64,000 bases of DNA, from the NCBI GenBank assembly GCA_030699685.1, contig JAUYLJ010000054.1:309-64308 (forward strand). The letters run 5' to 3'. Within the stretch, counting starts at the first letter, position 1, and each line of letters starts with the position of its first letter. The DNA is from a bacterium (GTDB lineage Bacteria > Patescibacteriota > Patescibacteriia > JAHIZJ01). This document shows positions 3,456 through 46,580 of this stretch, piece after piece. The notes under the pieces were generated by a model. The model saw only the letters and a program-made list of their open reading frames with translations. It made no database searches and had not been told where the DNA came from. Both the position numbers and the translations under genes were made by a program.

Positions 3456-3548
3456 AGATCATCGTTTCGGGAGTAGTTCGGCCGGTAGAACCCCGTACAA
3501 CTGCTATGTAGTTTATGGGGCAAGCGCTCCGCATTTTGTCCGCCGTAC

Positions 3549-3620
3549 TCCGAGGTAGTTCAATGGTAGAACGCTGCACTGTTAATGCAGATGTTGGAGG
3601 TTCGAATCCTCCCCTCGGAG
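3549..3620 (+). tRNA. tRNA-Asn (anticodon GTT)
   Basis: 72-nt cloverleaf folded by hand: acceptor TCCGAGG/CCTCGGA, D-arm GTTC-AATGGTA-GAAC, anticodon arm CTGCA-CTGTTAA-TGCAG, T-arm GGAGG-TTCGAAT-CCTCC, discriminator G. Confidence 0.93.
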
Positions 3621-3679
3621 CTCGGCGGGAAAGGCTCCGGCGCTTACGTGAAATCTTTAGGCTATGCTACAATGCCAGC

Positions 3680-4432
3680 ATGAACCAGAAAATATTCAAT
3701 TCCAGAAAGGAAAAACTTGATACGCTGGTTGAGGGTCGCAATGGAAATTTGACCATTGTGATGGTCCATGGCTTTGGGACCAGCAAAGACGAGAACGCGA
3801 GAATGTTTATCGACATTTCCAAACGTCTTTCCGCTTACGGGCGGATCGTGCGTTTTGACTTTGCCGGTTACGGCCAGAGTGAAGGTCGTCAGGAGGACGT
3901 CAATCTGAATACTATGGCCGATGACCTGAAGTCAGTACTTGATTGGGTTCGAAAGAAATATGGAGGCCGTATTATGATCCTGGCGCATTCTTTTGGCACG
4001 CTTGTCACTCGCTATCTCTCTCCGGATAGTATTGAGAAGACTATTTTTACCGGTATCACTCCACCTGACGTGAAAGCGCATATGGAGTCAACCATGAAGA
4101 GAATTCAAAGTCGGGTCGGAGGAAGCCTGAGCGAAAACGGGGTAAGCATCTATCCCCGAAAAGATGGAGAAGTACAAAAAATCGGCAGTAGTCATTGGAA
4201 AATTCTTCGAGAAGTCGACCCTCTGAGATTGGCCAAGATACTCGCTCAAAAGACAGACTTAATCATCATTAAGCCCATGCAAGATGAGATTGTCGGCGGT
4301 GAAGCTACGACGGAGCAATATAAAACAATTTCCGGGATCAGATTCATCGAGCTTGACGGAGATCATAACTTTACCTCTCAGCGTGATAGGAGGGGATTGT
4401 TAAATACTCTGGAACGACTGATTGCTGGTTAG
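3680..4432 (+). CDS. alpha/beta-fold hydrolase
   Basis: HGFG oxyanion motif and nucleophile elbow AHSFG; the ORF-track start at 3515 runs through the tRNA and is an artefact; the real start is ATG 3680. Confidence 0.7.
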   Translation: MNQKIFNSRKEKLDTLVEGRNGNLTIVMVHGFGTSKDENARMFIDISKRLSAYGRIVRFDFAGYGQSEGRQEDVNLNTMADDLKSVLDWVRKKYGGRIMILAHSFGTLVTRYLSPDSIEKTIFTGITPPDVKAHMESTMKRIQSRVGGSLSENGVSIYPRKDGEVQKIGSSHWKILREVDPLRLAKILAQKTDLIIIKPMQDEIVGGEATTEQYKTISGIRFIELDGDHNFTSQRDRRGLLNTLERLIAG

Positions 4433-4700: not shown

Positions 4701-5768
4701 TTATATAACCTCGAAGGTTCCCGTGTACATTCCCATCGAACAAGCGAATACATATTGCCCCTTCTTGGTTGGGGTAAAACGGAATGTTTCGCTGTCGGTT
4801 GGTTCCAACAACGCATAGATGCCAAATTGCCGGAAAGTGAAAGCGGAAGCGCAGCTATAAACGTCATTTGTTTCCACGGTGAGCTCTACCGGCACTCCGG
4901 CTTTAACTTTGATACGATTTGGTTTGTATCCATAATCCTGTACTTCAATATGTACTTTTTGGATCTCGGCTATGCTGATATCGGGACTGGAAAAATTCAC
5001 CTCTTCGCCATTGGATGAAGCGGATCCATTCGCGGAAAAAGCCAGCTGTATCCGCTGCCAGGAAATTGGCGCGTCCACTGCTTGCAAAACTCCGTTGAAG
5101 CTGTAGAGGGACATTCCCACCAACAGCAAGGCGGCAAATTTCAAAAATTTCACTTGCAACGATTCACTAAGTTTCGCCGTGGCAATGCCGATAAACCCGA
5201 AAATCGGCGCCGTGCCCAGCACGAAAACCATCATAATCAGCGCTCCCGTGATCGGATTTCCGCTGTTGATCGCCAGGACTTCCATGGCCTGGGTCACCCC
5301 GCAGGGAATAAAAACAGTGAAAACCCCGAGGATGGTCGGCGCGAAGAACGATGACGCCTTGCTGGATTGTCGCACCTTTCTTTGGATAAATTTCGGCGGT
5401 TGAAAAGCCACGAAACGGAAGATCGGGTGGACGTTGAAAAGATTAAGCGCCGTGGTCAGCATAAAGGCGGCGGCCAAAACCTGGAAAAAAATTTTCACGC
5501 CAAAACTGAGGGTGAAAACCGATCCCAAAGCTCCCAAAAGGAAACCAAGTATGCCGTGGACTACGAGTTTTGACCCCAGAAACATGACCACCGGCAGCCA
5601 GTCGCCCTTGTCAAAAGAACGAGACGCCAATTCCGGTGAATCGGGGCTGTCCCGAAAATCCTTTCGTTTTTGATTGGCGATAATGGACGCCAACAATCCT
5701 CCCTGAACGGCCAAGCACGCCAACCCGCCGGTTGTCAGGCCAGTCAGAAAAACAACCCAAAGGTTCAT
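4701..5768 (-). CDS. membrane permease (TauE/SafE-like) fused to a C-terminal cupredoxin-like metal-binding domain
   Basis: N-terminal [17 protein letters not shown] helix motif and multiple TMs; C-terminal ~90 aa beta-sandwich with Cys/Met/His (YSCASAF...[10 protein letters not shown]). Confidence 0.5.
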
Positions 5769-7972
5769 TGTTTTTGCAAGTTAACTTTTTTAAGTCTTAG
5801 CGCGTTTGCCACCACGGAAACGCTTGATAGCGCCATAGCCAGGCTGGCCAGCATGGGATTGAGCTGAGTGCCGGTCAGCGGATACAAGACGCCCATGGCC
5901 ACCGGTATCAAAATGATGTTATAGCTAAATGCCCAGACAAGGTTCTGGCGAATGTTACGCATGGTCGCTTTGGCCAAGGTGATGGACTGGGGAATCAGTG
6001 AAATATCACCTCGCAACAGCGTTATTCCGGCTGTTTCCATGGCGACATCCGTACCTTCTCCCATGGCGATTCCCACGTCAGCCACCGCCAAGGCCGGCGC
6101 GTCATTGATCCCGTCACCGGACATGGCTACGACATTCCCTTTCGATTGAGAATCTTTGATCCAGGCGGCTTTTTCTTCCGGTGAGACGCGGGCTCTCCAG
6201 GTCGTGATGGAAACGGTATTGGCGATCGCTTCAGCTGTTTTTTTATTGTCACCCGTGAGCATCACTGGCTCAATGCCCATCTGACTTAGCCTGGCAACCG
6301 CCGAAGCCGATTTTTCTTTTACCTGATCAAATACGGCGATATACCCCAAATATCTATTTTCTTCAGAAAGTAGCAAGACGCTTTCCCCGAGCGATTCATG
6401 TTCCGTTATCTTTCTCTGCTGTTCTTCAGTGATCTTTCCGTCATGTTGGAGAATAAAATCCAGAGTGCCGAGGCGATATTCTTTTCCCTTGATTGTGCCC
6501 AAGACACCTTTGCCCGACTCCGCGTGAAACGATTCAACGGGCTGAAGCGATAGTTTCATCGCATTTGTCTTTTGTATCACGGCTCCTGCCAGAGGGTGTT
6601 CTGATTGTTGCTCGAGGGAAGCGGCCAGGATCAATACCTCATCGGAAGAGTACGAATTAACCGCGGGTTTTCCTTCCGTCAGCGTGCCGGTTTTATCCAA
6701 CACCACTTGCGTTATGGCTTGAGACCGCTCAAGCGACTCCGCGTTGCGTATCAGGATGCCTTTTTTAGCTCCCCGGCCGATTCCCACGGTGAGCGAGGTG
6801 GGCGTGGCTAGGCCCAGGGCGCAGGGACAGGCGATAATCAAGACGGAAATCATACTAACCAGCGCGCGCGGCAGGCTCGGCTCTGGTCCAAAAATAATCC
6901 AGGCGATAAACGTAATTATCGACAGCGCTATCACGATTGGGACGAAATAGGACGAAATAGTGTCTACGAGTTTTTGGATTGGAGGTCGCGAACCTTGAGC
7001 CTCGCGAACCATTTGGACAATCCGTGAAAGTTTGGTGTTTTCCCCGACTACCGTCGCTCGCATTTCAAACGATCCTGAGGAATTCATCGTCGCCGCGAAG
7101 ACCGCGTCAGATGGCTTTTTTTCTACCGGGATACTTTCTCCCGTTAACATGCTTTCATCTACGGAACTGCCCCCCTTGAATACTATGCCGTCAACGGGAA
7201 TTTTTTCTCCAGGCTTTACCAATATTTCATCGCCAATCATTACGTTTTCGACTGGCTGATCTTGCCATTCTCCGTTTTTTCTGACATGGGCGATAGTTGG
7301 CTGGAGTTCTAATAATTCTTTGATGGCGGCGGAGGCCTGTCCCTTGGCCCTGGTTTCCAGGTATTTTCCCAATAATATTAATGTCAGAATAGTGGCCGAA
7401 GTTTCAAAGTACACGTACTGAGGAAGGCCCGAGTCTCCCAAACTGCCGGAAAAAACCGCGACAACAAGGGAGTAGCCATATGCCACCGAAGTTCCCAGGG
7501 CGACCAGGGTGTCCATATTGGTCGTTTTATTTTTCGCGGCCGACCAGGCGCTTAAGTAAAAATCCTTTCCCAGCCAGAATTGAATTGGAGTGGCCAAGGC
7601 CAGCATGAAGAGGGGATTGGCCATAAACGCGGGAGCGGCCGGGACCATAGCGGCAAAAAGAAGAACGGCTGACAAAATTATTCCGACAAATAATTTTCGC
7701 CGAAGCGAGTTCAGCCGGATAGCGTGATCATGTTCCATGGTCGAGTCGGTATCGCCGTGATCAATATGCGCTTTGTAGCCAAGCTTCCCCACAATATCGG
7801 CAATGCCGTCTGTTTTAATGGCTTTTGAGTCGTACGTGACATGGGCGTGTTCATTGCCATAATTTACCGTTGCTTGCGAAATGCCGTCTGCTTTTAACAA
7901 CTTTCTTTGTATATTGGCAGCGCAGGAGGCGCAATGCATTCCCGAAACGTAGAAATTAATTTTTTCAGACAT
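5765..7972 (-). CDS. copA: copper-translocating P-type ATPase CopA
   Basis: HMA domain [11 protein letters not shown] motif ([13 protein letters not shown]), [15 protein letters not shown]; start taken at MSEKINF, overlapping the regulator stop by 8 nt. Confidence 0.9.
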
Positions 7973-8441
7973 ATTTTTTCGGATGAAGAATAAAATTCTT
8001 TCGGCAGCCTGAAGCGCAAAAGTAGTAGGTAGTGCGTTTATACTCATGGGTAAAGACCGCGTGACGTGGTGAAACTGACATACCGCAAACTGGATCGGTA
8101 ATTTTTGGCACGGATGGAGCACTCAGCTTATGGCGCAAAGGCCGAATGCTTTTTCTATCAGAAAGAACCTCATGGATATTCTCCAGCAGTTTAATGAATG
8201 TCGGATGCGCGAGACGATATAATTTTTCTTTGCCTTGGCGCTTTGTTACCACTATCCCGTTTCTTCGCAAAACCTGAAGATGCTGGCTCACGTTCGACTG
8301 CGACATTCCAGACATGTGGATAAGTTCAGTGACGGTCACTGAGGTATCGCACAAAATACGCAATATCTCAATGCGTTTTTGATTAGCGAGCGCTTTCAAC
8401 AGCCGTGTGTATTGTTGGTACGTTGAAGAAGACATATTCAA
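7965..8441 (-). CDS. ArsR/SmtB-family metalloregulator with C-terminal YHS/TRASH copper-binding domain
   Basis: wHTH ...[12 protein letters not shown]...[18 protein letters not shown]...; C-terminal DPVCGM...YYFCASGCR (TRASH/YHS); TTG or ATG (8435) start. Confidence 0.75.
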
Positions 8442-8900: not shown

Positions 8901-8940
8901 TCTTGCAAGCTAAGTATAGCAGATTCACAGGAGCAGAGAA

Positions 8941-8971
8941 GCGGGATAGTAAGTCCCGCTATTGTTTTTTG
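8941..8971 (+). terminator. orphan hairpin + T-tract (GCGGGA-tagtaag-TCCCGC tattgttttttg)
   Basis: Stem-loop followed by a T-run with no upstream plus-strand gene; sits in the leader of the UbiA gene; the motif recurs at 12574-12592. Confidence 0.35.
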
Positions 8972-9035
8972 CCATTTTGGCTGTATACTCTTGATATCGC
9001 GTAACAGAAAGATCTTCGAAAAACTCATGAGGTAG

Positions 9036-9917
9036 ATGATGCTGTCAAAACACCCAGTCAACGGCCCAGACCGGCCAACCCGCCGTGTCAACAGCCGGAT
9101 AATGATCCGGGGGATGCTTGATCTGATCCGCTGGTTCAGTCTGTCGGGAATGGCGCTGCTTGCCTTGGTCAGCCTTCGTCTGGCTGGCCACTCTCCGTCC
9201 TCTGCCTGGTCAATCTACTTTGTCAGCGGCATCATCGTGGTAGCCGCCGCGGGATACGTCTGGAATGACTACCTTGATTACCGGATTGACGCAATCAACA
9301 AGCCTTCCCGTCCGCTGGTTCAGGGACTGATCAGCCTGCGTTTCGCCCGGACGATAGCCATTCTTTTGGGAGCGATTGGGTTGGTGCTGTATGTTCAACT
9401 CGGCATTTTTTTCTTCCTCTACAGTCTCTTTGTCGTGGTCGTACTGGCATTCTACAGCCGGGCGCTGAAAGACCGGCATGGAGTAATCGGTAATCTGGCC
9501 GTGGCGTTGCTGCTGGCCAGTATCCCGCTCACCGTCGGGGCCAAGCACGGCTGGACCCTGCCTTTGGCTGTTCTGGCCGGAGTTACGTTCTGTCTGGGCT
9601 TTGCCCACGAAGTGATGAAGGATGCGGAAGACGTGCCCGGTGACCGGAGGGGCGGAAGAAAAACTCTCGCCACCCACTACTCGCGCCTCGCCTTGGAAGG
9701 GGCGATCTCAACATCTCTGGCCTTCACGCTGGCGATTGGCCTCGTGCCGCTTGCTTTGGGATCGGCTCAATCGAAGCTCCTCGTTATTCCTGAAACAATG
9801 CTCGTAGCCAGCTTTGTCTTTTGGAAATTCGGAGGAATGAGGGATGCCGTATTTCGTCACCTGCTCAAGCTTAACGCTTTTGCCTACGTTATTGCCTATT
9901 TCATCGCCGGAGGGTGA
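9036..9917 (+). CDS. UbiA-family prenyltransferase (DGGGP synthase-like)
   Basis: NDYLDYRID (NDxxDxxxD) Mg-binding motif, 8-9 TM helices, second Asp-rich region HEVMKDAEDVPGD. Confidence 0.75.
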   Translation: MMLSKHPVNGPDRPTRRVNSRIMIRGMLDLIRWFSLSGMALLALVSLRLAGHSPSSAWSIYFVSGIIVVAAAGYVWNDYLDYRIDAINKPSRPLVQGLISLRFARTIAILLGAIGLVLYVQLGIFFFLYSLFVVVVLAFYSRALKDRHGVIGNLAVALLLASIPLTVGAKHGWTLPLAVLAGVTFCLGFAHEVMKDAEDVPGDRRGGRKTLATHYSRLALEGAISTSLAFTLAIGLVPLALGSAQSKLLVIPETMLVASFVFWKFGGMRDAVFRHLLKLNAFAYVIAYFIAGG

Positions 9918-10705
9918 CGATGGACAATGTGTGGAATTATCTTGAGCAACGAATCAGGGAATACGGTTGCGGTTTTCTGGCGATTGTTGACCCTGACAAG
10001 TATGTACTGTCGGATCTTTCCCGACTGTGCCGGGCGTTGAGAGCCGCAAACGTTGATGGGGTGCTGGTCGGAGGCACGATTCTAAAAAAAGGTCACGAGC
10101 ACTACGGTAAGATTGTGCTCGCATTGCGCCAGGGGTTGCCGGACGCGCCTGTCATTATCTTCCCTGGCGGTTCGGGCATGTACCGGTCATTGGTGCCGGG
10201 CGCGGACGCTATCTTCTTTCGTCAGCTGATCAGCGGGACGAACCGGAAGTATCTCTACACAGAACAATGCCTGGCTGGTATAAGGGCGAAACGGATGGGA
10301 ATCGAAGCAATCGCGGTGGGATACGTGTTTGTGCGTTCGCGGGCCATTCAAAGAGCGGCGGACATTACCAATACAACCCCGGTGCGTGAAGCAGACACGG
10401 AACGTGCCGTTGGGCTAGCAATACTCTCGGAGTCGACAGGAAAGCGCCTCATTTGGTTCGAGCGGGGAAGCAACGCCGAAGCACCTGTTCCCGAGCCGTT
10501 TATCAAAACCGTCTCGGCCCATCCCTTGGTGGAACTACCCATCATGGTTAGCGGCGGACTTCGCACTGCGGAAAATGTTCGAGCAGTGGTGCGCGCCGGT
10601 GCCAGGCTGACGGGAGTGGGAACGGTGATTGAACAAAGCAAGGATATTGAAGCTACGCTTAGTCCCTTGGTAAGTGCCGCTCATTGGCGCGCGTCGTCGG
10701 CTTGA
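9914..10705 (+). CDS. geranylgeranylglyceryl-/heptaprenylglyceryl-phosphate synthase family (GGGPS/PcrB)
   Basis: FLAIVDPDK, VLVGGT, IFPGG and MVSGGLRTAENV motifs match the PcrB/GGGPS TIM-barrel family; start overlaps the UbiA stop (ATGA). Confidence 0.7.
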   Translation: MTMDNVWNYLEQRIREYGCGFLAIVDPDKYVLSDLSRLCRALRAANVDGVLVGGTILKKGHEHYGKIVLALRQGLPDAPVIIFPGGSGMYRSLVPGADAIFFRQLISGTNRKYLYTEQCLAGIRAKRMGIEAIAVGYVFVRSRAIQRAADITNTTPVREADTERAVGLAILSESTGKRLIWFERGSNAEAPVPEPFIKTVSAHPLVELPIMVSGGLRTAENVRAVVRAGARLTGVGTVIEQSKDIEATLSPLVSAAHWRASSA

Positions 10706-27131: not shown

Positions 27132-27611
27132 TTATTTTCCAATTATCATCGTATATCTGCGTCCTTGGCGGGACAAAGCTTGTTCCGGCTTGGCATCCCC
27201 GATGCGTTCAATAAATTCTTTAAATTTCTTTTCCGCCAGCTCCTGGTGCTGCATTTCACGCCCTCGTAGCAGCATCTCCACTTTCACCTTATCGCCTCCA
27301 TCAAGGAATTTCTGCGCTTGGTCGACCCGGTGATCAAAATCGTGCTGGCCCATTTTCAGCGAAAGTCTGATTCCTTTCACCTCAACCTTTTTTTGCTTTG
27401 ACTTCGATTTGCGCTCGGCTTTTTCCTGGCGGTATTTAAACGCGCCAAAATCCATCAATCGGCAGACCGGGGGCTGAGCGTTGGGCGCGATCTCAACAAG
27501 ATCAACTCCTCTCTCTTCCGCCATCTTTAAAGCCTCCTGAGTGGAGACAATACCGAGCTGGGTTTGATTTTCGTCAATCAGTCTGACTTGCGGGACGCGA
27601 ATATAATGATT
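27132..27611 (-). CDS. infC: translation initiation factor IF-3 with non-AUG start (AUC/AUU/AUA run)
   Basis: Conserved IF3 N-domain RVPQVRLIDENQTQLGIVSTQEALKMAEERGVDLVEI lies upstream of the first in-frame ATG (27524), so the start must be one of the ATC-ATT-ATA codons at 27603-27611. Confidence 0.8.
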   Translation of the reverse strand, partial: NHYIRVPQVRLIDENQTQLGIVSTQEALKMAEERGVDLVEIAPNAQPPVCRLMDFGAFKYRQEKAERKSKSKQKKVEVKGIRLSLKMGQHDFDHRVDQAQKFLDGGDKVKVEMLLRGREMQHQELAEKKFKEFIERIGDAKPEQALSRQGRRYTMIIGK

Positions 27612-27712: not shown

Positions 27713-28103
27713 TGGTGGAGATGAGGGGACTTTCACCCCTGTCTGAACAGGTATTTGCCAGCCGTCTACCAATGTAGTCTATTTCTTTGAGTTCGGGCGT
27801 CAAGCATCAAAACAGACAAAAGTGCTTATCGTCCTAGTTTCCGGTTGCCCACGATGATCCTCGGAAACAGCCGGATCATCAGCCCTGAAATGAATGACAC
27901 CCGATGGCCCCCTATCAGGAGTCAGAGGATCGGATGGTTACCGCGATTTAGGCGGCAACAGGAGCGAGATTGAATGACGCAAAAGCGTTCTTCAATTTCG
28001 CGAAATTTGACTTGGCATTTGTCGATTTTCCAGCTTTTTACAGAGCTCTGGTCTCTGATTGGCTAGTTGGCAAAGGTGCTATCCGTCGATTTATAACATC
28101 CCC
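27713..28103 (-). ncRNA. ssrA: tmRNA (ssrA) downstream of smpB
   Basis: 5-prime GGGGAUGUUAUAAAUCGACGGAUAG resembles the tmRNA consensus GGGGCUGAUUCUGGAUUCGACGGGAU. The 3-prime ...AGGGG-UGAAAGU-CCCCU-CAUCUCC-A-CCA pairs with the 5-prime end and includes a G3-U70 wobble. A GUAAAAAGC element and an internal tag-like ORF GCG UCA UUC AAU CUC GCU CCU GUU GCC GCC UAA ((A)ASFNLAPVAA) are present. An ORF-free 390-nt span next to smpB fits a tmRNA. Confidence 0.78.
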
Positions 28104-28168: not shown

Positions 28169-28621
28169 CTACCTACTTTGTTTCATTGCTCGTTGGATAT
28201 TGCGATCAACTTCACGTTTCTTGATTGATTCGCGCTTGTCAGCCTTGCGTTTTCCGCGGCCAACTCCAATTTTTACTTTAATGAAACTTCCTCGAGTATA
28301 CAAGGATAGCGGCACCAGTGTCAAGCCCTCAGTCAGGCGTTTCCCGATCAGGTTTTTGATTTGATCTGAGCGCAGGAGCAGCCGTCGTTCACGGTCAGGA
28401 TTGTAGTCAGTCTGAGCCCCTTTGGCTTTGGCATAAGGCGAGATATGGCAATTCATGAGGTAGGGGATTTCTTCACGGAGCGTGATATAGCTTCCTTTCA
28501 GATTGATCTGGCCTAGTTTTACGGATTTTACCTCGGCGCCGGATAATACGATCCCAGCCTCGATTTCGTCGAGAATTTCGTAATGAAAACGCACTTCTTT
28601 ATTGTTGGCTAAAGTTGGCAT
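28169..28621 (-). CDS. smpB: SsrA-binding protein SmpB
   Basis: 150 aa; GIVLSGAEVKS...LLLRSDQI and a basic C-terminal tail typical of SmpB. Confidence 0.9.
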   Translation of the reverse strand: MPTLANNKEVRFHYEILDEIEAGIVLSGAEVKSVKLGQINLKGSYITLREEIPYLMNCHISPYAKAKGAQTDYNPDRERRLLLRSDQIKNLIGKRLTEGLTLVPLSLYTRGSFIKVKIGVGRGKRKADKRESIKKREVDRNIQRAMKQSR

Positions 28622-28778: not shown

Positions 28779-28809
28779 AAAAAAAGGAGCTGAAATATTT
28801 TTCAGCTCC
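28779..28809 (-). terminator. intrinsic terminator (GGAGCTGAA-atattt-TTCAGCTCC, T7 on minus)
   Basis: 9-bp perfect stem overlapping the stop of 28802..29731, followed by TTTTTTT on the minus strand. Confidence 0.75.
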
Positions 28810-29731
28810 CAAGCCTATCCAGGCTTTTTTGCAGTTCGTCGACAAAGCGTTCTGTTCCAGACGGCAAGCCGACAACCTGGCGTTCCAGGTCACGGCATTG
28901 GACTTCGCGCCCGGAGCATTTCTCGATTTCCCGAAAAAGATCAATGCTGATTTCCAGGCAGGTACGGGAAAAGGAAACCAGATGGCTGTCGGGGATTGAA
29001 GCCCAGTCTCCAGGACGACCGAAGGGAAGGATGTAGGGGAAGCCAGCGTTTCCGTCATGCGCCAGACTGCGGCCGCAAAGTGGTGTGCCGGGGATAAAGT
29101 CGCGTTCGCAGACTTCATCGATGAGGTTTTTGTAGCAGACGGATGCCAATGTCCTGACCTGCTGTTGATGAACGCGTTTCCAGCCCTCGTCAATCCAGAT
29201 TCCGGCAATCATGGCCCGTACCCTGATCTTGTGTCTCTTCAGACCCTCGATCACCTGGCAGGCCTGACCACCCGAGAAGACCACATCGTCGACCAGTACG
29301 ACATCGGTGATGCCTTGCTGAGCCAGGGACTGGTACTGGATATCCAGAGCCGCTGAGCCGGCACGGTGGAAACTGCCGACATCATTTCCTTCCTGATTCA
29401 CGGACCGACTGACATCAATGTGATATTGGCTGGTCCAATGAGACCTGGTCATGGACACGATTGCCATGTTCCCGTAATCGATGAACTCGCAGTCCGGCGG
29501 AACCTCATCGATTGGAAATTCGATTTTGCCAACCAGACCACGAATGGTTGATGAGAGCTTCTCCGCGGAAATCCACTCCACGACGGGAAAGATTCGGCAT
29601 AAAGCGTCGAGCAGACCTTCCCGCTTCTCAGCGAAATGTTCCGTCGGAGGGATCGTGAATCCTTTTTCTTCTGCCCAGCGACCAAGAAGCAATTCGGCGT
29701 CGCCTGACACAACGTAGGGTGGATTACTCAT
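28802..29731 (-). CDS. type-I phosphoribosyltransferase (PRTase)-fold protein of unknown specificity
   Basis: PRPP-binding motif VVLVDDVVFSGGQACQVIEGL; ~200-aa extra N/C regions. Confidence 0.6.
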   Translation of the reverse strand: MSNPPYVVSGDAELLLGRWAEEKGFTIPPTEHFAEKREGLLDALCRIFPVVEWISAEKLSSTIRGLVGKIEFPIDEVPPDCEFIDYGNMAIVSMTRSHWTSQYHIDVSRSVNQEGNDVGSFHRAGSAALDIQYQSLAQQGITDVVLVDDVVFSGGQACQVIEGLKRHKIRVRAMIAGIWIDEGWKRVHQQQVRTLASVCYKNLIDEVCERDFIPGTPLCGRSLAHDGNAGFPYILPFGRPGDWASIPDSHLVSFSRTCLEISIDLFREIEKCSGREVQCRDLERQVVGLPSGTERFVDELQKSLDRLGS

Positions 29732-30279
29732 TCGAAAGCTCCTTTCAGTAGATACCAGTACTCGTGAAGTACATCAGGCTTTAAACTACATGGCACCGTA
29801 ATTCCGGATCGCAGGAAACCCATCGCGTGATTCATCCTGATCATTGACGTATTGTCGTTTCTGATTCTCGTCAGGAAAAGTACCGAGTTTTTTGAAACGC
29901 AATGCTCGATCATCTTTTGTCGCAGCTGATGACCGATTCCTTGACCTTGTCGGTCCGGAAGAACGATCAGATCGCGAATCCAGACCAGTGTGGTGTTCCG
30001 CTCCAGGTGACGAACGGCGAATGCGGCTAGGGCTGTTCCGCGCTCGTTCTTCAGTTCCGAGATTGCCGGCGAATCCCACCAGATTGCTCCAACCAGGCGG
30101 TGGTCTTGCGTGGCAACCAAACAGTGAAATCCCCGGCGGCGCGTGGTCTCCACCCAGCGGGTGGCCGCTTCGGCAAAAGATAGTTCCTCAAACCATGGGT
30201 GACAGGCGAACGCTTCAACAATGCCTGTACAGATGTTGTGCGAATGCCGGAATCTGGCTCGACTGATATGCAATGGCAT
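29728..30279 (-). CDS. GNAT-family N-acetyltransferase
   Basis: VLPDRQGQGIGHQL acetyl-CoA binding motif; 4-nt overlap with the downstream PRTase gene. Confidence 0.75.
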   Translation of the reverse strand: MPLHISRARFRHSHNICTGIVEAFACHPWFEELSFAEAATRWVETTRRRGFHCLVATQDHRLVGAIWWDSPAISELKNERGTALAAFAVRHLERNTTLVWIRDLIVLPDRQGQGIGHQLRQKMIEHCVSKNSVLFLTRIRNDNTSMIRMNHAMGFLRSGITVPCSLKPDVLHEYWYLLKGAFE

Positions 30280-30445: not shown

Positions 30446-31750
30446 TTAGTACTGAAATACGTTTTCAAGCTCTACCCGTTTCAGGGCATAGCACCAGTAG
30501 TCGGCATACTGACCGACGATAAAAGGGTACAGTATTTGGCCGTTAATGCTCGTTTTTTGAAAATCTTTCAATTGACGCGCTTCTTCAGGTGAGATGAATT
30601 CCTTTTCCACGCGGCCGTAGACTTGGAAAATGTTCTTTTCTCTCATCATGTTCAGAGTCGGCCTGATTCCTTGACTGACGATCTGATAAACGACTCGATA
30701 CAATTCTTGCTGGACTGCGGGATCGTTTTTCGGGCCGGCCTCAATTTCTACACCGCAAGGGACGAATCTGGTAATCGGACCACGGGCGGCCGATCGTTTC
30801 GACGACCAGATCACAATGTTTTTGACAGGCAACGCAGCGGCCAGAAGGAGGTTTTCAAGCGTCGGGTTGGTTACAATCGTGACGATTCCGGTCTTGGCAC
30901 CGGTGCCGTGCAGGTCGATGACGTAGCGGTAGTTTTGTGACGCCGATACCAGTTCGGCAGCCCGGCGTTCTTCGTAAGCTGGAGAGTTTTTGTCACCGGG
31001 TGCCGAACGGTTTAAGTCGGTGTCAACATATCGGGTGTTATTTTTCACGGCGCGTTCATTACCGATAAGCCAATCGTAATTAATGTTTTGAGTCTCTTGA
31101 CTGACTCGCCGTAATACCTCGGCACCGATAGTTTCATTGCCGTGTGTCGCGGCAATCAGAAGAATTTCTTTTGGGCGCTGGTCTCGAGTTCGGATCAGAG
31201 CCAGTGCCATGGTGACTGCCCGGGCTGGATCGGTCACCGTTTGAATCTTGAAGCGTTTCCGAGAATCAAGATAGTAGCCGGCCAATGAATCGCTCCAGCC
31301 GCCGCTGCCTTTGAGCGCGACCACCGGAATGCCGGCTTGATACGCGATCGTAATTTCGTTGAGCGTCCCGGAGCCCCCACCGATACTAATCACCACGTCG
31401 CAGCTTAAAACCAGCGGCAGTTCGCGCCCGCCACCACGCTCCATGCCGGTGGCTATGATTACATCCGCGTTTGACTCAGCCACGGTTAAGCCTTTCCCGT
31501 ACGTAACCCCGACCGTGAGACCTCCGGCCTTTTTTGCTCCACGGCAAGCCGCTGACGATAAGGAGTCGTAATCTTTTTCAGCGCCAAAGACAAGCGTGGC
31601 ACCATTTTTGGCGATTTCTTCTCCGATTGATTCCGCCAGCGATTCAATCTTTTTCGAATATTGGATATCGCCCATAGTACCAATGACGCCGATTTGAGGA
31701 GTGCGAGGATTGGTTGATTTGTTGGTGAGTGAATTAGTAAATTGTTTCAT
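30446..31750 (-). CDS. fusion protein: LOG/TIGR00725-like (SLOG) Rossmann domain + succinylglutamate desuccinylase/aspartoacylase (AstE/AspA) family domain
   Basis: N-terminal GVIGTMG...ISIGGGSGTLNEITIAYQAGIPVVAL (LOG-like PGGxGT); C-terminal ATHGNETIG...DLHGTG zinc-hydrolase motifs. Confidence 0.5.
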   Translation of the reverse strand: MKQFTNSLTNKSTNPRTPQIGVIGTMGDIQYSKKIESLAESIGEEIAKNGATLVFGAEKDYDSLSSAACRGAKKAGGLTVGVTYGKGLTVAESNADVIIATGMERGGGRELPLVLSCDVVISIGGGSGTLNEITIAYQAGIPVVALKGSGGWSDSLAGYYLDSRKRFKIQTVTDPARAVTMALALIRTRDQRPKEILLIAATHGNETIGAEVLRRVSQETQNINYDWLIGNERAVKNNTRYVDTDLNRSAPGDKNSPAYEERRAAELVSASQNYRYVIDLHGTGAKTGIVTIVTNPTLENLLLAAALPVKNIVIWSSKRSAARGPITRFVPCGVEIEAGPKNDPAVQQELYRVVYQIVSQGIRPTLNMMREKNIFQVYGRVEKEFISPEEARQLKDFQKTSINGQILYPFIVGQYADYWCYALKRVELENVFQY

Positions 31751-32452: not shown

Positions 32453-33382
32453 ATGAAATCACGCAACATAGCAATCGCTGACCTGGGTGGACATGACTTG
32501 TCCCTGCCTATGATTGAACACGGCTCCGGCCGCCCGGAAGTGCTAATTATCAACAATCTTCATGGCAATGAAATAACGGGCTTTTACGTTCTGGATGCCT
32601 TACTCCGTGAATTGCCTAACTCGATTCAGGGCCGGCTCAGGATTATCCCTTGCGCCAATCTATTAGGTTTGGTGGCAAAACAGCGCGCAAATCCGCTTGA
32701 CGGGGCCGATCTGAACAGAGGATTCCCTCCATCGGACAAAGAGCGCGGCGTCCAAGCAGCCATAAAAAGAGTCTTGTTAGAACTGTCGGGTTCAGCCCAA
32801 GTGTTGATCGATCTTCATACTTTCACGCGCCCATCCTTAAGCGCCGTGTTACGTTTGCCGCACCCTCCCAAGCAATCCCGGACATTGGAACGATGCTTGG
32901 CTGTTCTCAACGTGGAAACAGTGATCGACATACCCGACAACTTCGAGGAAAGACCGGTCCAGAGCGCGCTGGGATTTGCTTTGGTCCAAAAAGGAGTAAC
33001 TGTTATTCCGATTGAATTTCCTCCCGCTCATTGCGTAAAGGATAATGCTGAAATTGAATCATTTGCCGCCGGACTTCTGAGCGCGCTGGCTGAACTGGGT
33101 CTGATGAAAAAGATCGTCAAAAGAGAACAACATGTACCGCCATCGTTCCTTCGTCAGCAGGTGATCTCGGACGCGAGCGGATTGTTTTTACCGACAGCGA
33201 CATTGCGGCAAAGCGTGATGGTTGGAGATGTCTTAGGCTTCCTCATTCACCCGCGCAGTGTCACCAAGACGCCGGTAGTGTCGCCGTACAGAGGAATGTT
33301 GTTTGAATTAGCCCAGAGGCAGATGATCGTGTTTGGCGACAAAATAGCAACAGTGGCTCGATCATCAGGCTCAAAAGCTTAA
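32453..33382 (+). CDS. AstE/AspA-family zinc deacylase (succinylglutamate desuccinylase/aspartoacylase-like)
   Basis: LIINNLHGNEITG, DLNRGFP and LIDLHTF zinc-ligand motifs. Confidence 0.6.
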   Translation: MKSRNIAIADLGGHDLSLPMIEHGSGRPEVLIINNLHGNEITGFYVLDALLRELPNSIQGRLRIIPCANLLGLVAKQRANPLDGADLNRGFPPSDKERGVQAAIKRVLLELSGSAQVLIDLHTFTRPSLSAVLRLPHPPKQSRTLERCLAVLNVETVIDIPDNFEERPVQSALGFALVQKGVTVIPIEFPPAHCVKDNAEIESFAAGLLSALAELGLMKKIVKREQHVPPSFLRQQVISDASGLFLPTATLRQSVMVGDVLGFLIHPRSVTKTPVVSPYRGMLFELAQRQMIVFGDKIATVARSSGSKA

Positions 33383-38070: not shown

Positions 38071-38445
38071 ATGGCTGAAAAAAAGACCATTCTGGTCGTG
38101 GAGGACGAAGAGTCGATCGCCAAATCCTATCTCAAACACTTTCATGATTTGGGCTGGGAGGTTGTAATCGCGATTGATGGAGAGGACGCTTTGGAAAAAC
38201 TCAAGAACGTCACGCCTGATCTGATCCTGCTTGACCTGATTTTGCCGAAGATGCACGGTTTTGAATTCTTAAGCCAGATAAAGCAGGACGAGAAATTGAA
38301 GAATCTGCCGGTGATTATCCTGTCGAACCTTTCGAGCTCTCGAAACAAGGACAAAGCGGTCGCTCTGGGTGCCGAAAAATATTTCGTAAAAACCGAAGTA
38401 ACTATCGGCGATATCGTGGAAATGGTCCAAGAACATTTTCGCTGA
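38071..38445 (+). CDS. stand-alone response-regulator receiver (CheY-like)
   Basis: VVEDEE...LILLDLILP...K receiver motifs with phospho-acceptor Asp; no output domain. Confidence 0.85.
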   Translation: MAEKKTILVVEDEESIAKSYLKHFHDLGWEVVIAIDGEDALEKLKNVTPDLILLDLILPKMHGFEFLSQIKQDEKLKNLPVIILSNLSSSRNKDKAVALGAEKYFVKTEVTIGDIVEMVQEHFR

Positions 38446-38448
38446 TTC

Positions 38449-38814
38449 ATGGCGCAAAAAATACTTATCATCGAAGACGAGCAAACACTGGCCCGTTCTC
38501 TCAAGGCTAAAATGGAGCGGGCGGGGTATGCCGTGGACAGGAAGATTGACGGTGTCCACGGATTGAAGCACGCGACTGACAAAAAGCCCGATTTCATCAT
38601 CCTTGACCTTATCTTGCCTGGTATGGGCGGACTGGAGGTGCTGAATGCGCTCAAGTCAAAAAAGGAGACAAAAATAATACCGGTGTTGGTGCTGAGCAAC
38701 GTTGACGATCCTAAAAGCTCTGACGAGGCTCTGAATTTAGGCGCGGTCAATTACCTGATCAAGACCCAGGTCACGCTCGAAAATATTCTCGAAGAAATCC
38801 GAAAACATATTTAA
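38449..38814 (+). CDS. stand-alone response-regulator receiver (second copy)
   Basis: IIEDEQ...FIILDLILPGMGG...K receiver motifs; 3-nt gap from the previous REC gene. Confidence 0.85.
   Translation: MAQKILIIEDEQTLARSLKAKMERAGYAVDRKIDGVHGLKHATDKKPDFIILDLILPGMGGLEVLNALKSKKETKIIPVLVLSNVDDPKSSDEALNLGAVNYLIKTQVTLENILEEIRKHI

Positions 38815-43546: not shown

Positions 43547-46580
<3,034 letters not shown>

What the first reader, a model, noticed from the sequence alone, without database searches (positions are those of the whole stretch)
9036..10705. Overlapping UbiA-prenyltransferase and GGGPS/PcrB genes: archaeal-type ether-lipid pair in a bacterium
Two translationally coupled genes (ATGA overlap) make up the pair. 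The first is a UbiA-family membrane prenyltransferase with NDxxDxxxD, resembling archaeal DGGGP synthase. The second belongs to the PcrB/GGGPS family (FLAIVDPDK, VLVGGT, IFPGG, SGGLRTAE). In archaea this pair builds the sn-glycerol-1-phosphate isoprenoid diether core. In Bacillus, PcrB acts alone, on heptaprenyl. Co-occurrence of the two genes in bacteria has been reported for some FCB and CPR lineages and taken as capacity for mixed or archaeal-like membranes. No G1P dehydrogenase is in the window, so the glycerol-phosphate stereochemistry and chain length remain open.
Basis: partly seen in the sequence, partly recalled or inferred. Interest (0 to 1): 0.62.

Follow-up and report, generated by a model that had tools for sequence, protein, structure and literature searches.

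The report
Archaeal-type ether-lipid gene pair in CPR bacterium
A tiny uncultivated (Patescibacteria/CPR) bacterium carries two tightly coupled genes that look like the two enzymes archaea use to build their ether-linked isoprenoid membrane lipids; this is a kind of bacterial exception already described, but here it is a rare, divergent version that always travels as one unit and in one relative sits on a plasmid.

Summary
Window 9036-9917(+) encodes a 293-aa UbiA-superfamily membrane prenyltransferase. Its closest characterised relative is archaeal DGGGP synthase. Window 9920-10705(+) encodes a 261-aa group II GGGP synthase, not a Bacillus-type PcrB. The junction is TGAcgATG (or GTGA), not ATGA.

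The host is bacterial (tmRNA, SmpB). The one marker tested, TGT, places it in Patescibacteria/CPR.

The GGGPS belongs to a very rare clade: five 90%-identity sequence clusters (four 50%-identity representatives) among about 15 billion proteins. The clade has 100% bootstrap support and at most 37% identity to any other GGGPS. In all five members a DGGGPS-like UbiA gene lies immediately upstream and is translationally coupled. Both genes are under purifying selection.

The clade has a 3-residue insertion beside the chain-length limiter. It also has changes at otherwise invariant acceptor-site positions (GGG to SGG; in three members Y to W and GSG to GSN).

No G1PDH, CarS, prenyl-diphosphate synthase or acyl-lipid gene is in the 64 kb.

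One relative carries the pair, plus a DedA-like gene, on a circular plasmid-like replicon of about 24.8 kb.

Verdict: a new member, possibly a variant, of the known bacterial GGGPS+DGGGPS systems. The function is predicted, not shown.

The parts
9036..9917 (+). DGGGPS-like UbiA-superfamily membrane prenyltransferase, 293 aa (NCBI MDP3964861.1)
   Evidence: Pfam UbiA 4e-33. Best NCBIfam models are DGGGPS-type, about 1e-35, below cut-off. Best PDB hit is MjDGGGPS 6m31, 3e-18. The AF2 model has pLDDT 90.7 with an N-terminal helix plus 9 long helices; Foldseek best match is 6m31/7bpu.
9264..9290 (+). First Asp-rich motif NDYLDYRID (N77-D85), the Mg2+/prenyl-diphosphate site
   Evidence: N77, D78, D81 and D85 are invariant across the clade UbiAs and the nearest homologues. 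Corresponds to motif 1 of MjDGGGPS (PMC9385802).
9453..9470 (+). Motif 2, Y140-x4-K145 (YSRALK)
   Evidence: Y140 and K145 are invariant. Corresponds to the conserved Y..K motif of DGGGPS.
9618..9644 (+). Second Asp-rich motif KDAEDVPGD (K195-D203)
   Evidence: K195, D196, D199, G202 and D203 are invariant. Corresponds to motif 3 of MjDGGGPS.
9909..9913 (+). GGAGG Shine-Dalgarno for the GGGPS gene, lying inside the end of the UbiA gene
   Evidence: Read directly from the sequence. It lies 6 nt upstream of ATG 9920.
9920..10705 (+). Group II geranylgeranylglyceryl-phosphate synthase (GGGPS) homologue, 261 aa (NCBI MDP3964862.1). An alternative GTG start at 9914 overlaps the UbiA stop.
   Evidence: Pfam PcrB 1e-17. 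NF003198 2e-49, below cut-off. PDB hits are group II only. AF2 pLDDT 93.7, TIM barrel; Foldseek TM 0.83-0.88 to group II GGGPS.
10175..10183 (+). Clade-specific 3-residue insertion G86-M87-Y88 at helix alpha3', next to the group II chain-length limiter position (L91, nt 10190-10192)
   Evidence: The insertion is absent from all 96 other group II sequences aligned. AF2 places a short helix at 87-90. The limiter maps to I90 of FjGGGPS and V86 of MtGGGPS.
10454..10474 (+). Acceptor-site strand and loop WFERGSN (W179-N185), in place of the canonical YLEAGSG
   Evidence: Among 96 other group II sequences: Y 92 and F 4 at position 179; A 82 at 182; G 96 of 96 at 185.
10550..10558 (+). Phosphate-binding loop SGG (S211-G213), in place of the canonical GGG
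   Evidence: G at position 211 in 96 of 96 other sequences; S or C in all five clade members.
8901..9035 (.). Divergent intergenic region upstream of the pair, the presumed promoter region. It contains a GC hairpin plus T-run at 8940-8970.
   Evidence: ORF map. The consensus scan finds only matches at chance frequency. Function not shown.

Best explanation
The two genes form a translationally coupled operon. Its predicted product is an isoprenoid diether glycerophosphate, an unsaturated archaetidic-acid-like lipid, made in a Patescibacteria/CPR bacterium.

Step 1 (inferred from homology). The soluble TIM-barrel GGGPS ionises a polyprenyl diphosphate with Mg2+. The donor is most likely C20 GGPP. 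The enzyme ether-links it to a glycerol phosphate.

Step 2 (inferred from homology plus conserved gene linkage). The 9-helix membrane UbiA enzyme adds a second prenyl chain to the free hydroxyl of that product, as archaeal DGGGPS does.

Head-group activation and attachment, and the supply of prenyl diphosphate and glycerol phosphate, would have to be encoded elsewhere in the genome or obtained from a host.

The stereochemistry of the glycerol phosphate (G1P or G3P) is open. The acceptor site is remodelled in this clade.
For: Family assignment.
- Pfam and NCBIfam.
- The PDB sequence and profile searches hit only group II GGGPS, at 1e-29 to 4e-42, and MjDGGGPS at 3e-18.
- High-confidence AF2 models are closest to group II GGGPS (TM 0.83-0.88) and to MjDGGGPS.

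Catalytic residues.
- All three DGGGPS motifs are invariant.
- In the GGGPS, D24/D26/K27, Y135, E181, S184, G212-G213 and T235 are kept.

Linkage.
- All five known clade members have UbiA directly upstream of GGGPS, with a 4-nt or 1-nt overlap or a 2-nt spacer. This holds despite 38-46% GGGPS identity and about 30% UbiA identity to the window's proteins, and unrelated flanking genes.

Selection.
- dN/dS is 0.10 for GGGPS and 0.22 for UbiA between two members.

Precedent.
- The Cloacimonetes pair makes GGGP in vitro and PG-archaeol in E. coli (PMC7852524).
- In the Cloacimonadota loci I fetched, the order is the same, UbiA then GGGPS.
- Those enzymes carry F and D at the 'conserved' Tyr and Glu positions. 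The W179 of the window enzyme therefore need not abolish activity.

Chain length.
- The limiter position is L/I, as in the C20-specific FjGGGPS.

Precursor supply.
- CPR bacteria are reported to have a mevalonate pathway (PMC11052028).
Against: - No enzyme assay or lipid data exist.
- Both proteins score well below NCBIfam equivalog or subfamily cut-offs (123 against 269-296 bits; 168 against 247 bits).
- Positions invariant in 96 other group II enzymes are changed: G185N, G211S and Y179W. A 3-residue insertion abuts the prenyl pocket. Acceptor, stereochemistry or chain length may therefore differ.
- No G1PDH, GGPP synthase, CarS/CdsA or head-group gene is in the 64 kb.
- CPR genomes are generally described as lacking lipid synthesis, so precursor supply is unproven.
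- UbiA acceptor specificity cannot be read from sequence.
Confidence: 0.62

Rival explanations
1. The acceptor has changed. The GGGPS-like enzyme prenylates something other than sn-glycerol-1-phosphate, for example G3P or another small phospho-polyol or acid (MoeO5 uses 3-phosphoglycerate). The pair would then make a different prenylated phospholipid or glycolipid anchor, not an archaeal-type core lipid.
For: The clade changes positions that are otherwise invariant in the acceptor and phosphate site: GGG to SGG in all five members; GSG to GSN and Tyr to Trp in three. The review PMC9385802 assigns the Tyr/Tyr/Glu triad to stereospecificity. No G1PDH is in the window. GGGPS promiscuity for G3P has been reported. 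MoeO5 is the next-best structural match, TM 0.79.
Against: Two clade members (P0015, P0206) keep Tyr and GSG, so the ancestral site was canonical. Y135, E/D181, S184 and T235 are kept. MoeO5 similarity is far weaker (1e-7 against 1e-29 to 1e-42). The Cloacimonetes enzyme, with F and D at the same positions, still uses G1P.
Confidence: 0.15
2. The two enzymes are not a diether pathway. The GGGPS homologue makes a single-chain prenylglyceryl phosphate, as Bacillus PcrB does. The UbiA enzyme prenylates an unrelated acceptor, such as a quinone-like aromatic, a tetrapyrrole or phosphoribose.
For: UbiA-superfamily acceptor specificity is hard to infer. The window UbiA is only 24-38% identical to any DGGGPS-like protein and sits below all equivalog cut-offs. 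The UbiA partner evolves much faster than the GGGPS: 51% against 83% identity between L001 and L011.
Against: The strictly conserved coupling across five divergent members is hard to explain if the two steps are unrelated. DGGGPS-type models beat all other UbiA subfamilies by more than 60 bits in four clade members. A CPR bacterium has no obvious use for quinones or chlorophyll. The same gene order occurs in Cloacimonadota, where the diether product was demonstrated.
Confidence: 0.1
3. Salvage or remodelling rather than de novo synthesis. The lipid-auxotrophic CPR cell uses the pair on precursors taken from a host, possibly an archaeon. It would re-assemble or modify scavenged isoprenoid and glycerol-phosphate units, or run the reactions in reverse to catabolise archaeal lipids.
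For: CPR genomes are described as lacking lipid biosynthesis, and some are ectosymbionts of methanogens (bioRxiv 10.1101/2022.04.20.488981). Coleman et al. 2019 raised a catabolic role for bacterial GGGPS/DGGGPS without G1PDH. There are no precursor genes in the 64 kb.
Against: Prenyl transfer with release of diphosphate is effectively irreversible (established enzymology). No host is known for this MAG. The rest of the genome is unseen, so the absence of precursor genes is not established.
Confidence: 0.1
4. Assembly or binning artefact. The pair belongs to an FCB bacterium or an archaeon and was joined to a CPR contig by mis-assembly.
For: The GC content of the pair (0.56) is above the window mean of 0.50. 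The nearest non-clade relatives are FCB bacteria.
Against: An independent Logan assembly from SRR13727534 has the same Cu-ATPase, regulator, hypothetical, UbiA and GGGPS arrangement. GC and GC3 are within the range of other window genes, for example the M32 peptidase at 0.573. No FCB or archaeal GGGPS exceeds 37% identity. The clade is separate with 100% bootstrap.
Confidence: 0.02

Closest known systems
Ca. Cloacimonetes (Cloacimonadota) GGGPS + DGGGPS pair (Villanueva et al. 2021, ISME J, PMC7852524)
   Same: A bacterial host. A group II GGGPS plus a DGGGPS-like UbiA, co-localised in the same order (UbiA upstream, same strand). No G1PDH found. Non-canonical residues at the 'conserved' Tyr and Glu positions.
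   Different: In Cloacimonadota there is a 72-120 bp gap instead of translational coupling, and a 307-aa ORF lies just upstream of UbiA in two of the three loci (not scanned here; the paper places a polyprenyl synthase gene on its scaffold). Identity to the window proteins is only 28-31%, both for GGGPS and for UbiA. The Cloacimonadota host makes normal fatty-acid lipids as well. Activity was shown experimentally there, not here. The window clade has the GM[YT] insertion, SGG and GSN.
Group II GGGPS, archaeal IIa (M. thermautotrophicus 4mm1, Thermoplasma 6jo3/6nke) and bacterial IIb (F. johnsoniae 4jej) (Peterhoff et al. 2014, as reviewed in PMC9385802)
   Same: Fold (TM 0.83-0.88, rmsd 1.6-2.0 A). 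DPDK, FPG, GY, E-x-GS, GG and GT motifs. Thr rather than Asn in the beta-alpha-8 loop. L/I at the limiter position.
   Different: 25-31% identity. A 3-residue insertion at alpha3'. Y179W, A182R, G185N, G211S, S53T and loss of R107. No aromatic or His 'anchor' residue (Asp at the W141 position of MtGGGPS), so a dimer rather than a hexamer is expected; this is an inference.
Archaeal DGGGP synthase (M. jannaschii, PDB 6m31/7bpu; Ren et al. 2020, as reviewed in PMC9385802)
   Same: An N-terminal helix plus 9 transmembrane helices. All three catalytic motifs. It is the best sequence and Foldseek match.
   Different: 24% identity. TM-score only 0.70, similar to other UbiA homologues (4od5 at 0.73). 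Below NCBIfam DGGGPS cut-offs. A disordered, non-conserved N-terminal extension of about 20 residues.
Bacillales PcrB (heptaprenylglyceryl phosphate synthase, group Ib in the review PMC9385802)
   Same: The same superfamily and TIM-barrel fold. Bacterial host.
   Different: Not detected by sequence or profile search. 19-20% identity and TM 0.72. Per the literature, PcrB acts without a DGGGPS partner and uses C35.

Membership tests
GGGPS family (PF01884), group II | Sequence membership in the PcrB/GGGPS family | tested here: met
   PF01884 at 64.4 bits against a cut-off of 23.9.
GGGPS family (PF01884), group II | Reaches the curated NCBIfam cut-offs for GGGPS subfamily or equivalog models | tested here: not met
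   NF003198 at 167.9 against 247; TIGR01768 at 96.4 against 113; TIGR01769 at 90.8 against 161.6. This is a divergent member.
GGGPS family (PF01884), group II | Modified (beta-alpha)8 barrel, closest to group II rather than group I/PcrB structures | tested here: met
   AF2 pLDDT 93.7. Foldseek group II TM 0.83-0.88; PcrB 0.72. The PDB profile search lists only group II GGGPS; no PcrB or A. fulgidus GGGPS appears among the 60 best of 71 hits at E<=10.
GGGPS family (PF01884), group II | Conserved Tyr/Tyr/Glu triad proposed to set G1P stereospecificity and catalysis | tested here: not met
   Y135 and E181 are present, but the second Tyr is W179. Among the 96 others it is Y 92, F 4. The F/D-carrying Cloacimonetes enzyme is nevertheless active.
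GGGPS family (PF01884), group II | Standard phosphate-binding loops (GSG, GGG, G-T) | tested here: inconclusive
   S184, G212, G213, G234 and T235 are kept. G185N and G211S replace residues invariant in 96 of 96 others.
GGGPS family (PF01884), group II | Transfers GGPP to sn-glycerol-1-phosphate | not testable with these tools
   Needs an enzyme assay.
DGGGP synthase (UbiA superfamily) | UbiA superfamily membership with the two Asp-rich motifs and the Y..K motif | tested here: met
   PF01040 at 115 bits. N77/D78/D81/D85, Y140/K145 and K195/D196/D199/D203 are invariant.
DGGGP synthase (UbiA superfamily) | Closest to DGGGPS rather than to the MenA, UbiA, CyoE, ChlG or EboC subfamilies | tested here: met
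   DGGGPS-type NCBIfam models at 122-123 bits, against ChlG 57, EboC 44, UbiA 35 and no MenA hit. PDB 6m31 at 3e-18 against chlorophyll synthase at 3e-7. The same pattern holds in the L001 and L092 partners.
DGGGP synthase (UbiA superfamily) | Reaches curated NCBIfam DGGGPS equivalog cut-offs | tested here: not met
   123 bits against cut-offs of 269-353.
DGGGP synthase (UbiA superfamily) | N-terminal amphipathic helix plus 9 transmembrane helices | tested here: met
   The AF2 model (pLDDT 90.7) has helices 20-31, then nine long helices and short cap helices. Hydropathy agrees.
DGGGP synthase (UbiA superfamily) | Uses GGGP as prenyl acceptor | not testable with these tools
   Supported only indirectly, by strict coupling to GGGPS in 5 of 5 clade members.
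Bacillales PcrB (heptaprenylglyceryl phosphate synthase, group I) | Clusters by sequence with group I / PcrB enzymes | tested here: not met
   No PcrB among the PDB hits listed (none at E<=0.01; none among the 60 best of 71 at E<=10 with the clade profile). 19-20% identity in the structural alignment.
Complete archaeal phospholipid pathway | G1PDH (EgsA/AraM), GGPP synthase, CarS, head-group transferases and GGR present | tested here: not met
   None in the 64-kb window. The rest of the genome was not available, so genome-wide absence is not established.
Patescibacteria/CPR host | Phylogenetic marker genes nearest to Patescibacteria | tested here: met
   TGT (45486-46580): among the 120 best hits listed (51-65% identity), every hit with a taxonomically informative name is 'Patescibacteria group', Ca. 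Kerfeldbacteria or an ACD uncultured bacterium. Only one marker was tested. Bacterial identity is also supported by tmRNA and SmpB.

The most novel reading that the evidence does not exclude
The UbiA-GGGPS pair, with a DedA/VTT-like membrane protein in some members, is a self-contained, horizontally mobile 'isoprenoid ether-lipid cassette'. It moves between uncultivated bacteria on plasmids. It lets lipid-auxotrophic CPR cells build membrane lipids of archaeal chemistry. The remodelled acceptor site (W179, N185, S211) may have shifted specificity, for example towards bacterial G3P. If so, these would be natural bacteria whose bulk membrane, or a major part of it, is isoprenoid diether, acquired as a transferable module.
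Probability: 0.2. Interest if true: 0.8.

Novelty: new member of a known kind. Interest (0 to 1): 0.52.

Why it matters
Bacteria that carry both ether-forming enzymes of archaeal lipid synthesis bear on the 'lipid divide' and on whether mixed or archaeal-type membranes exist in nature.

The published cases are FCB-group bacteria that also make ordinary fatty-acid lipids. CPR bacteria are thought to make no lipids at all. An operon that could build the lipid core in such a cell would change how their membranes are understood, and it is directly testable by heterologous expression.

- the module is always coupled;
- it is under purifying selection;
- in one relative it lies on a circular plasmid-like replicon between 38-bp direct repeats, which suggests that archaeal-type lipid chemistry can spread horizontally as a unit.

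The altered acceptor-site residues offer a natural experiment on what sets G1P/G3P specificity in GGGPS.

Tried and rejected
- Bacillus-type PcrB or MenA/UbiA identity: rejected.
- MoeO5-like enzyme: much weaker match, 1e-7.
- GTDB species-representative scan with clade-specific peptide patterns: 64 pattern matches, none a relative. A broader scan returned 80 loci, all FCB-type, KSB1, Zixibacteria, Poribacteria or archaea at 28-37% identity. None was Patescibacteria.
- JGI metagenome scan: only one weak 27% hit.
- A resolved sister group for the clade: the NJ bootstrap gives 100% for the clade, but at most 19% for any placement inside group II. No ML tree or group I outgroup was available.
- Promoter and terminator scan around the pair: matches at chance frequency.
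- Flanking repeats or mobile-element genes around the pair in the window: none convincing.
- Homologues of the plasmid's 248-aa and DedA-like genes in the window: none.
- GGGPS homologues on known plasmids (PLSDB): none. The plasmid's ATPase in the phage collection: none.
- Taxonomy of the relatives' contigs (L001, L010, L011, L092) could not be established.
- The Logan contig L097 ends exactly at the 38-bp repeats. I first read this as a cassette-less plasmid, then rejected that reading as a k=31 assembly break.
Full report

The ORF listing gives 9036..9917(+), 293 aa, and 9914..10705(+), 263 aa.

Pfam assigns the first ORF to UbiA (PF01040, 4e-33, 115 bits against a cut-off of 34). It assigns the second to PcrB/GGGPS (PF01884, 1e-17, 64 bits against a cut-off of 24).

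The junction is GGAGGGTGACGATGGAC.
- The UbiA stop TGA is at 9915-9917.
- The second gene starts at GTG 9914 (a GTGA overlap) or, more probably, at ATG 9920.
- ATG 9920 is the NCBI start (261 aa, P0012). It fits the N-termini of the relatives. It has a GGAGG Shine-Dalgarno six nt upstream.
- 'ATGA overlap' is therefore a misreading for this window. Three relatives do have genuine ATGA overlaps, and a fourth has a 1-nt TGATG overlap. The genes are tightly coupled either way.

**2. Whose genome is it?**

Rfam finds a tmRNA (27713-28103, minus strand), next to an SmpB gene. The window also encodes bacterial housekeeping genes: ArgRS, IleRS, MetRS, RecO, TGT, a Clp ATPase, IF3, TatD and RmuC.

The proteins are on record at NCBI as 'MAG... 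[bacterium]' on a 65,583-nt contig (MDP3964861.1 and MDP3964862.1).

For the TGT protein, the 120 best database hits listed are 51-65% identical. Every hit with a taxonomically informative name is 'Patescibacteria group bacterium', Ca. Kerfeldbacteria or an ACD 'uncultured bacterium'. I take the host to be a CPR/Patescibacteria bacterium. This rests on one marker.

About a third of the larger ORFs have no Pfam hit, which fits such genomes.

The GC content of the pair is 0.56 against a window mean of 0.50. This lies within the spread of other window genes. An independent Logan assembly reproduces the local gene order. I reject mis-assembly.

**3. What are the two proteins?**

*GGGPS.*
- phmmer against the PDB hits only group II enzymes at 1e-29 to 1e-22: M. 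thermautotrophicus 4mm1 and its variants, F. johnsoniae 4jej, and Thermoplasma 6jo3 and 6nke.
- MoeO5 follows at 1e-7, then HisA-type barrels.
- A profile of the clade sharpens this: 4jej at 4e-42.
- No Bacillus or Staphylococcus PcrB and no A. fulgidus group I GGGPS appears among the 60 best of 71 hits at E<=10.
- An AlphaFold2 model (pLDDT 93.7) is a (beta-alpha)8 barrel. It matches group II structures at TM 0.83-0.88 and rmsd 1.6-2.0 A. MoeO5 matches at 0.79 and PcrB at 0.72 with 19-20% identity.

*UbiA.*
- The best PDB hit is M. jannaschii DGGGPS (6m31, 3e-18). The next is chlorophyll synthase at 3e-7. MenA and UbiA proper are not hit.
- The best NCBIfam models are the DGGGPS-type PRK12884/12882 at about 1e-35 and 122-123 bits. 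Other scores: ChlG 57 bits, EboC 44, UbiA 35.
- The AF2 model (pLDDT 90.7) has an N-terminal helix followed by nine long helices, the architecture described for MjDGGGPS. 6m31/7bpu is the best Foldseek match. TM-scores do not separate UbiA subfamilies.
- The three catalytic motifs are invariant.

Both proteins fall well below NCBI's curated equivalog or subfamily cut-offs. They are divergent members.

**4. A rare, distinct clade in which the pair is always coupled**

In the word-indexed search of 5.8 billion clusters, the GGGPS has only three relatives above 40% identity (P0013-15, at 44-45%). The next hit is at 36%.

An exhaustive HMMER search of 1.84 billion 50%-identity representatives with the clade profile gave:
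- P0014, P0012 and P0015 at more than 435 bits;
- one intermediate protein, P0206, at 264 bits;
- then a drop to 175 bits for ordinary group II enzymes.

Two scans of GTDB species representatives and one of JGI metagenomes found no further member. The 80 best GTDB loci are KSB1, Cytophagia, Ignavibacteria, Calditrichota, Zixibacteria, Cloacimonadota, Poribacteria and a few archaea, at 28-37% identity. None is Patescibacteria.

In an NJ tree of 100 group II sequences, the four close members are monophyletic in 100 of 100 bootstraps. Their position within group II is unresolved, with at most 19% support.

In every member, a DGGGPS-like UbiA gene lies immediately upstream on the same strand: L001-L004, L011, L010 and L092-L095. 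The flanking genes are unrelated:
- UvrB and a 3-hydroxyacyl-CoA dehydrogenase in L001;
- plasmid genes in L092;
- a copper-resistance cluster and a RecD-like helicase in the window.

Between L001 and L011, dN/dS is 0.10 for GGGPS (83% amino-acid identity) and 0.22 for UbiA (51%). Both genes are maintained by selection. The membrane partner evolves faster.

Among the 80 GTDB loci, only the three Cloacimonadota loci have a DGGGPS-like gene within 5 kb. The order is the same, with a 72-120 bp gap. This agrees with Villanueva et al. [quoted passage not shown] Cloacimonetes'. They mention a single Parcubacteria genome that holds both genes.

**5. What differs from canonical group II enzymes**

Shared by all five clade members:
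- GGS to GGT;
- a 3-residue insertion (G-M-Y/T/A) after FPGG. It lies at helix alpha3', directly before the position (L91) that aligns with the proposed chain-length limiter, I90 of FjGGGPS and V86 of MtGGGPS;
- GGG to S/C-GG in the beta-alpha-7 phosphate loop. This position is G in 96 of 96 other sequences.

Shared by four of the five members:
- Ala to Arg at position 182 (P0015 has Cys).

Only in the window, P0013 and P0014:
- the 'strictly conserved' second Tyr is Trp (W179);
- GSG is GSN (G in 96 of 96 others);
- R107 is lost.

P0015 and P0206 keep Tyr and GSG, so the ancestral site was canonical.

The Cloacimonadota enzymes carry Phe and Asp at the Tyr and Glu positions. The Cloacimonetes enzyme is active and accepts both G1P and G3P. 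W179 therefore does not argue for inactivity. It does leave stereochemistry open.

The L/I limiter residue favours C20, but the adjacent insertion makes this uncertain.

Asp occupies the aromatic-anchor position (W141 of MtGGGPS). This suggests a dimer, as in bacterial group IIb. That is an inference.

**6. Context in the window**

No other lipid or isoprenoid gene occurs in 64 kb.
- Upstream, divergently transcribed: a 135-aa membrane protein without family, then an ArsR/YHS regulator, a Cu P-type ATPase and a DsbD_2-cupredoxin protein.
- Downstream: a 90-aa membrane ORF and a RecD-like helicase.

Consensus promoter and terminator matches are at chance level. No flanking repeats or integrase were found.

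**7. Mechanism proposed**

The following is inferred. The only experimental support comes from homologues.
- The GGGPS ether-links a prenyl diphosphate, probably GGPP, to a glycerol phosphate.
- The coupled membrane UbiA enzyme adds the second chain, giving a di-O-prenylglyceryl phosphate.
- Precursors and head-group chemistry must come from elsewhere. CPR bacteria are reported to have a mevalonate pathway. They are also generally described as lacking lipid synthesis.

I rate this at about 0.62. Rivals:
- a changed acceptor or stereochemistry (0.15);
- two unrelated prenylations (0.10);
- salvage or remodelling of host-derived precursors (0.10);
- artefact (0.02).

**8. A by-product: the pair on a plasmid**

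P0206 lies on JGI contigs of 24,929 nt and 24,819 nt from different samples. These contigs are circular permutations of one another:
- L096 1-2467 equals L092 15359-17825, and L096 9445-19226 equals L092 1-9782, both at 100% identity;
- the implied circle is 24,802 bp;
- the contig lengths exceed it by 127 nt and 17 nt, as expected for terminal assembly overlaps.

The replicon encodes an integrase, an N6/N4 methyltransferase with an Mrr nuclease, MerR/HTH_17, ParA/ParB, a Replic_Relax protein, a DUF87/TrwB-like ATPase with weak similarity to plasmid VirD4/DUF87 proteins, RadC and an HTH/M78 pair.

The cassette runs UbiA, GGGPS (ATGA overlap), a 248-aa polytopic protein, then a 239-aa protein. 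The last has weak DedA/VTT similarity (Pfam 6e-4, NCBIfam 8.5e-4, both below cut-off). A perfect 38-bp direct repeat brackets the cassette (L092 5934-5971 and 9504-9541).

The DedA-like protein has a 62%-identical homologue directly downstream of the pair in L010. There is none in the window.

The host of this replicon is unknown.

This supports the view that the pair moves as a module.

**9. Comparison and verdict**

This is the same kind of system as the bacterial GGGPS+DGGGPS pairs of the FCB group, and most like the co-localised Cloacimonetes pair. It is a new member in a different lineage (CPR). It is more tightly organised and sequence-divergent, with an altered acceptor site. It is not a PcrB-type system.

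NCBI already annotates the two proteins generically. The papers I could search do not describe this clade, its strict coupling or a plasmid-borne copy.

Interest is moderate at 0.52. The kind is known and the function is only predicted. The CPR host, the rarity of the clade, the mobility of the module and the remodelled site make it a good experimental target.

Noticed in passing
L092 1-17825 and L096 1-19226 (JGI Ga0377233_004276, Ga0401391_003578): A relative of the pair (P0206, with UbiA upstream) lies on what assembles as a circular plasmid-like replicon of about 24,802 bp. It carries an integrase, a methyltransferase with Mrr, ParA/ParB, Replic_Relax, a DUF87/TrwB-like ATPase, RadC and an HTH/M78 pair. 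Contigs from different samples are circular permutations of each other at 100% identity. The host is unknown.
   Followed up: partly
L092 5934-5971 and 9504-9541: A perfect 38-bp direct repeat (AAACAGGGCCCCCAGGAGCCCCGCTGAGCGACGATCGC) brackets the four-gene UbiA-GGGPS-248aa-239aa cassette. It forms the 3' end of both the DUF87 ATPase gene and the 239-aa gene, which suggests insertion or excision of the cassette. The Logan contig L097 breaks exactly at these repeats, most likely a k=31 assembly effect.
   Followed up: partly
L092 8811-9530 and L010 1781-2467 (minus strand): A DedA/VTT-like membrane protein (weak hits only, below cut-offs) accompanies the pair in two of the five clade members, with 62% identity between the two copies. 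There is none in the window or in L001. It is a possible lipid-flipping partner.
   Followed up: partly
L001 9859-10800: A 3-hydroxyacyl/3-hydroxybutyryl-CoA dehydrogenase homologue (NF004474 1.5e-66, below cut-off) lies 288 bp downstream of the pair in the closest relative's contig. Its relevance is unknown.
   Followed up: no
L045 3068-5747, L072 2978-5756, L066 3391-5087: In the Cloacimonadota species representatives the order is also UbiA then GGGPS on one strand, separated by 72-120 bp. In two of the three loci a 307-aa ORF lies just upstream; I did not scan it. Their GGGPS has F and D at the 'conserved' Tyr and Glu positions.
   Followed up: partly
window 27713-28103 (minus strand) and 28169-28621 (minus strand): The tmRNA gene was found by Rfam (94.8 bits) but not reported by ARAGORN. 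It lies directly beside smpB. An IF3 gene is at 27132-27524 (minus strand).
   Followed up: no
window 3549-3621: tRNA-Asn(GTT) lies inside the mechanical ORF 3515-4432. The Pfam match of that ORF (alpha/beta hydrolase) begins at about residue 63-80, so its real start is probably downstream of the tRNA.
   Followed up: no
window 4701-8441 (minus strand): A copper-handling cluster lies immediately upstream of the pair and is transcribed away from it: a DsbD_2-cupredoxin protein, an HMA/P-type ATPase and an ArsR-type regulator with a YHS domain.
   Followed up: no
window 8940-8970: A GC-rich hairpin (AGCGGGA...TCCCGCT) followed by a T-run lies on the + strand in the divergent intergenic region, 65 nt before the UbiA start. 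No + strand gene ends upstream of it. It could be a leader or attenuator element, or chance (3 terminator-like sites found against 3.7 expected).
   Followed up: no
window 30446-31750 (minus strand) and 32453-33382 (+): A SLOG (LDcluster4) domain fused to an AstE/AspA-type deacylase domain, and a second stand-alone AstE/AspA-type gene nearby. A PRTase-CE-like gene and a GNAT gene lie at 28802-30279.
   Followed up: no
window 38071-38814: Two tandem receiver-only response-regulator genes (124 and 121 aa) lie directly upstream of IleRS. No histidine kinase was seen in the window.
   Followed up: no
window 9036-9101: The first 20 or so residues of the UbiA protein are not conserved in relatives and are predicted to be disordered (pLDDT 48-68). 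There are two adjacent ATGs (9036, 9039) after a GAGG. The true start may be 9039, or an internal Met.
   Followed up: no
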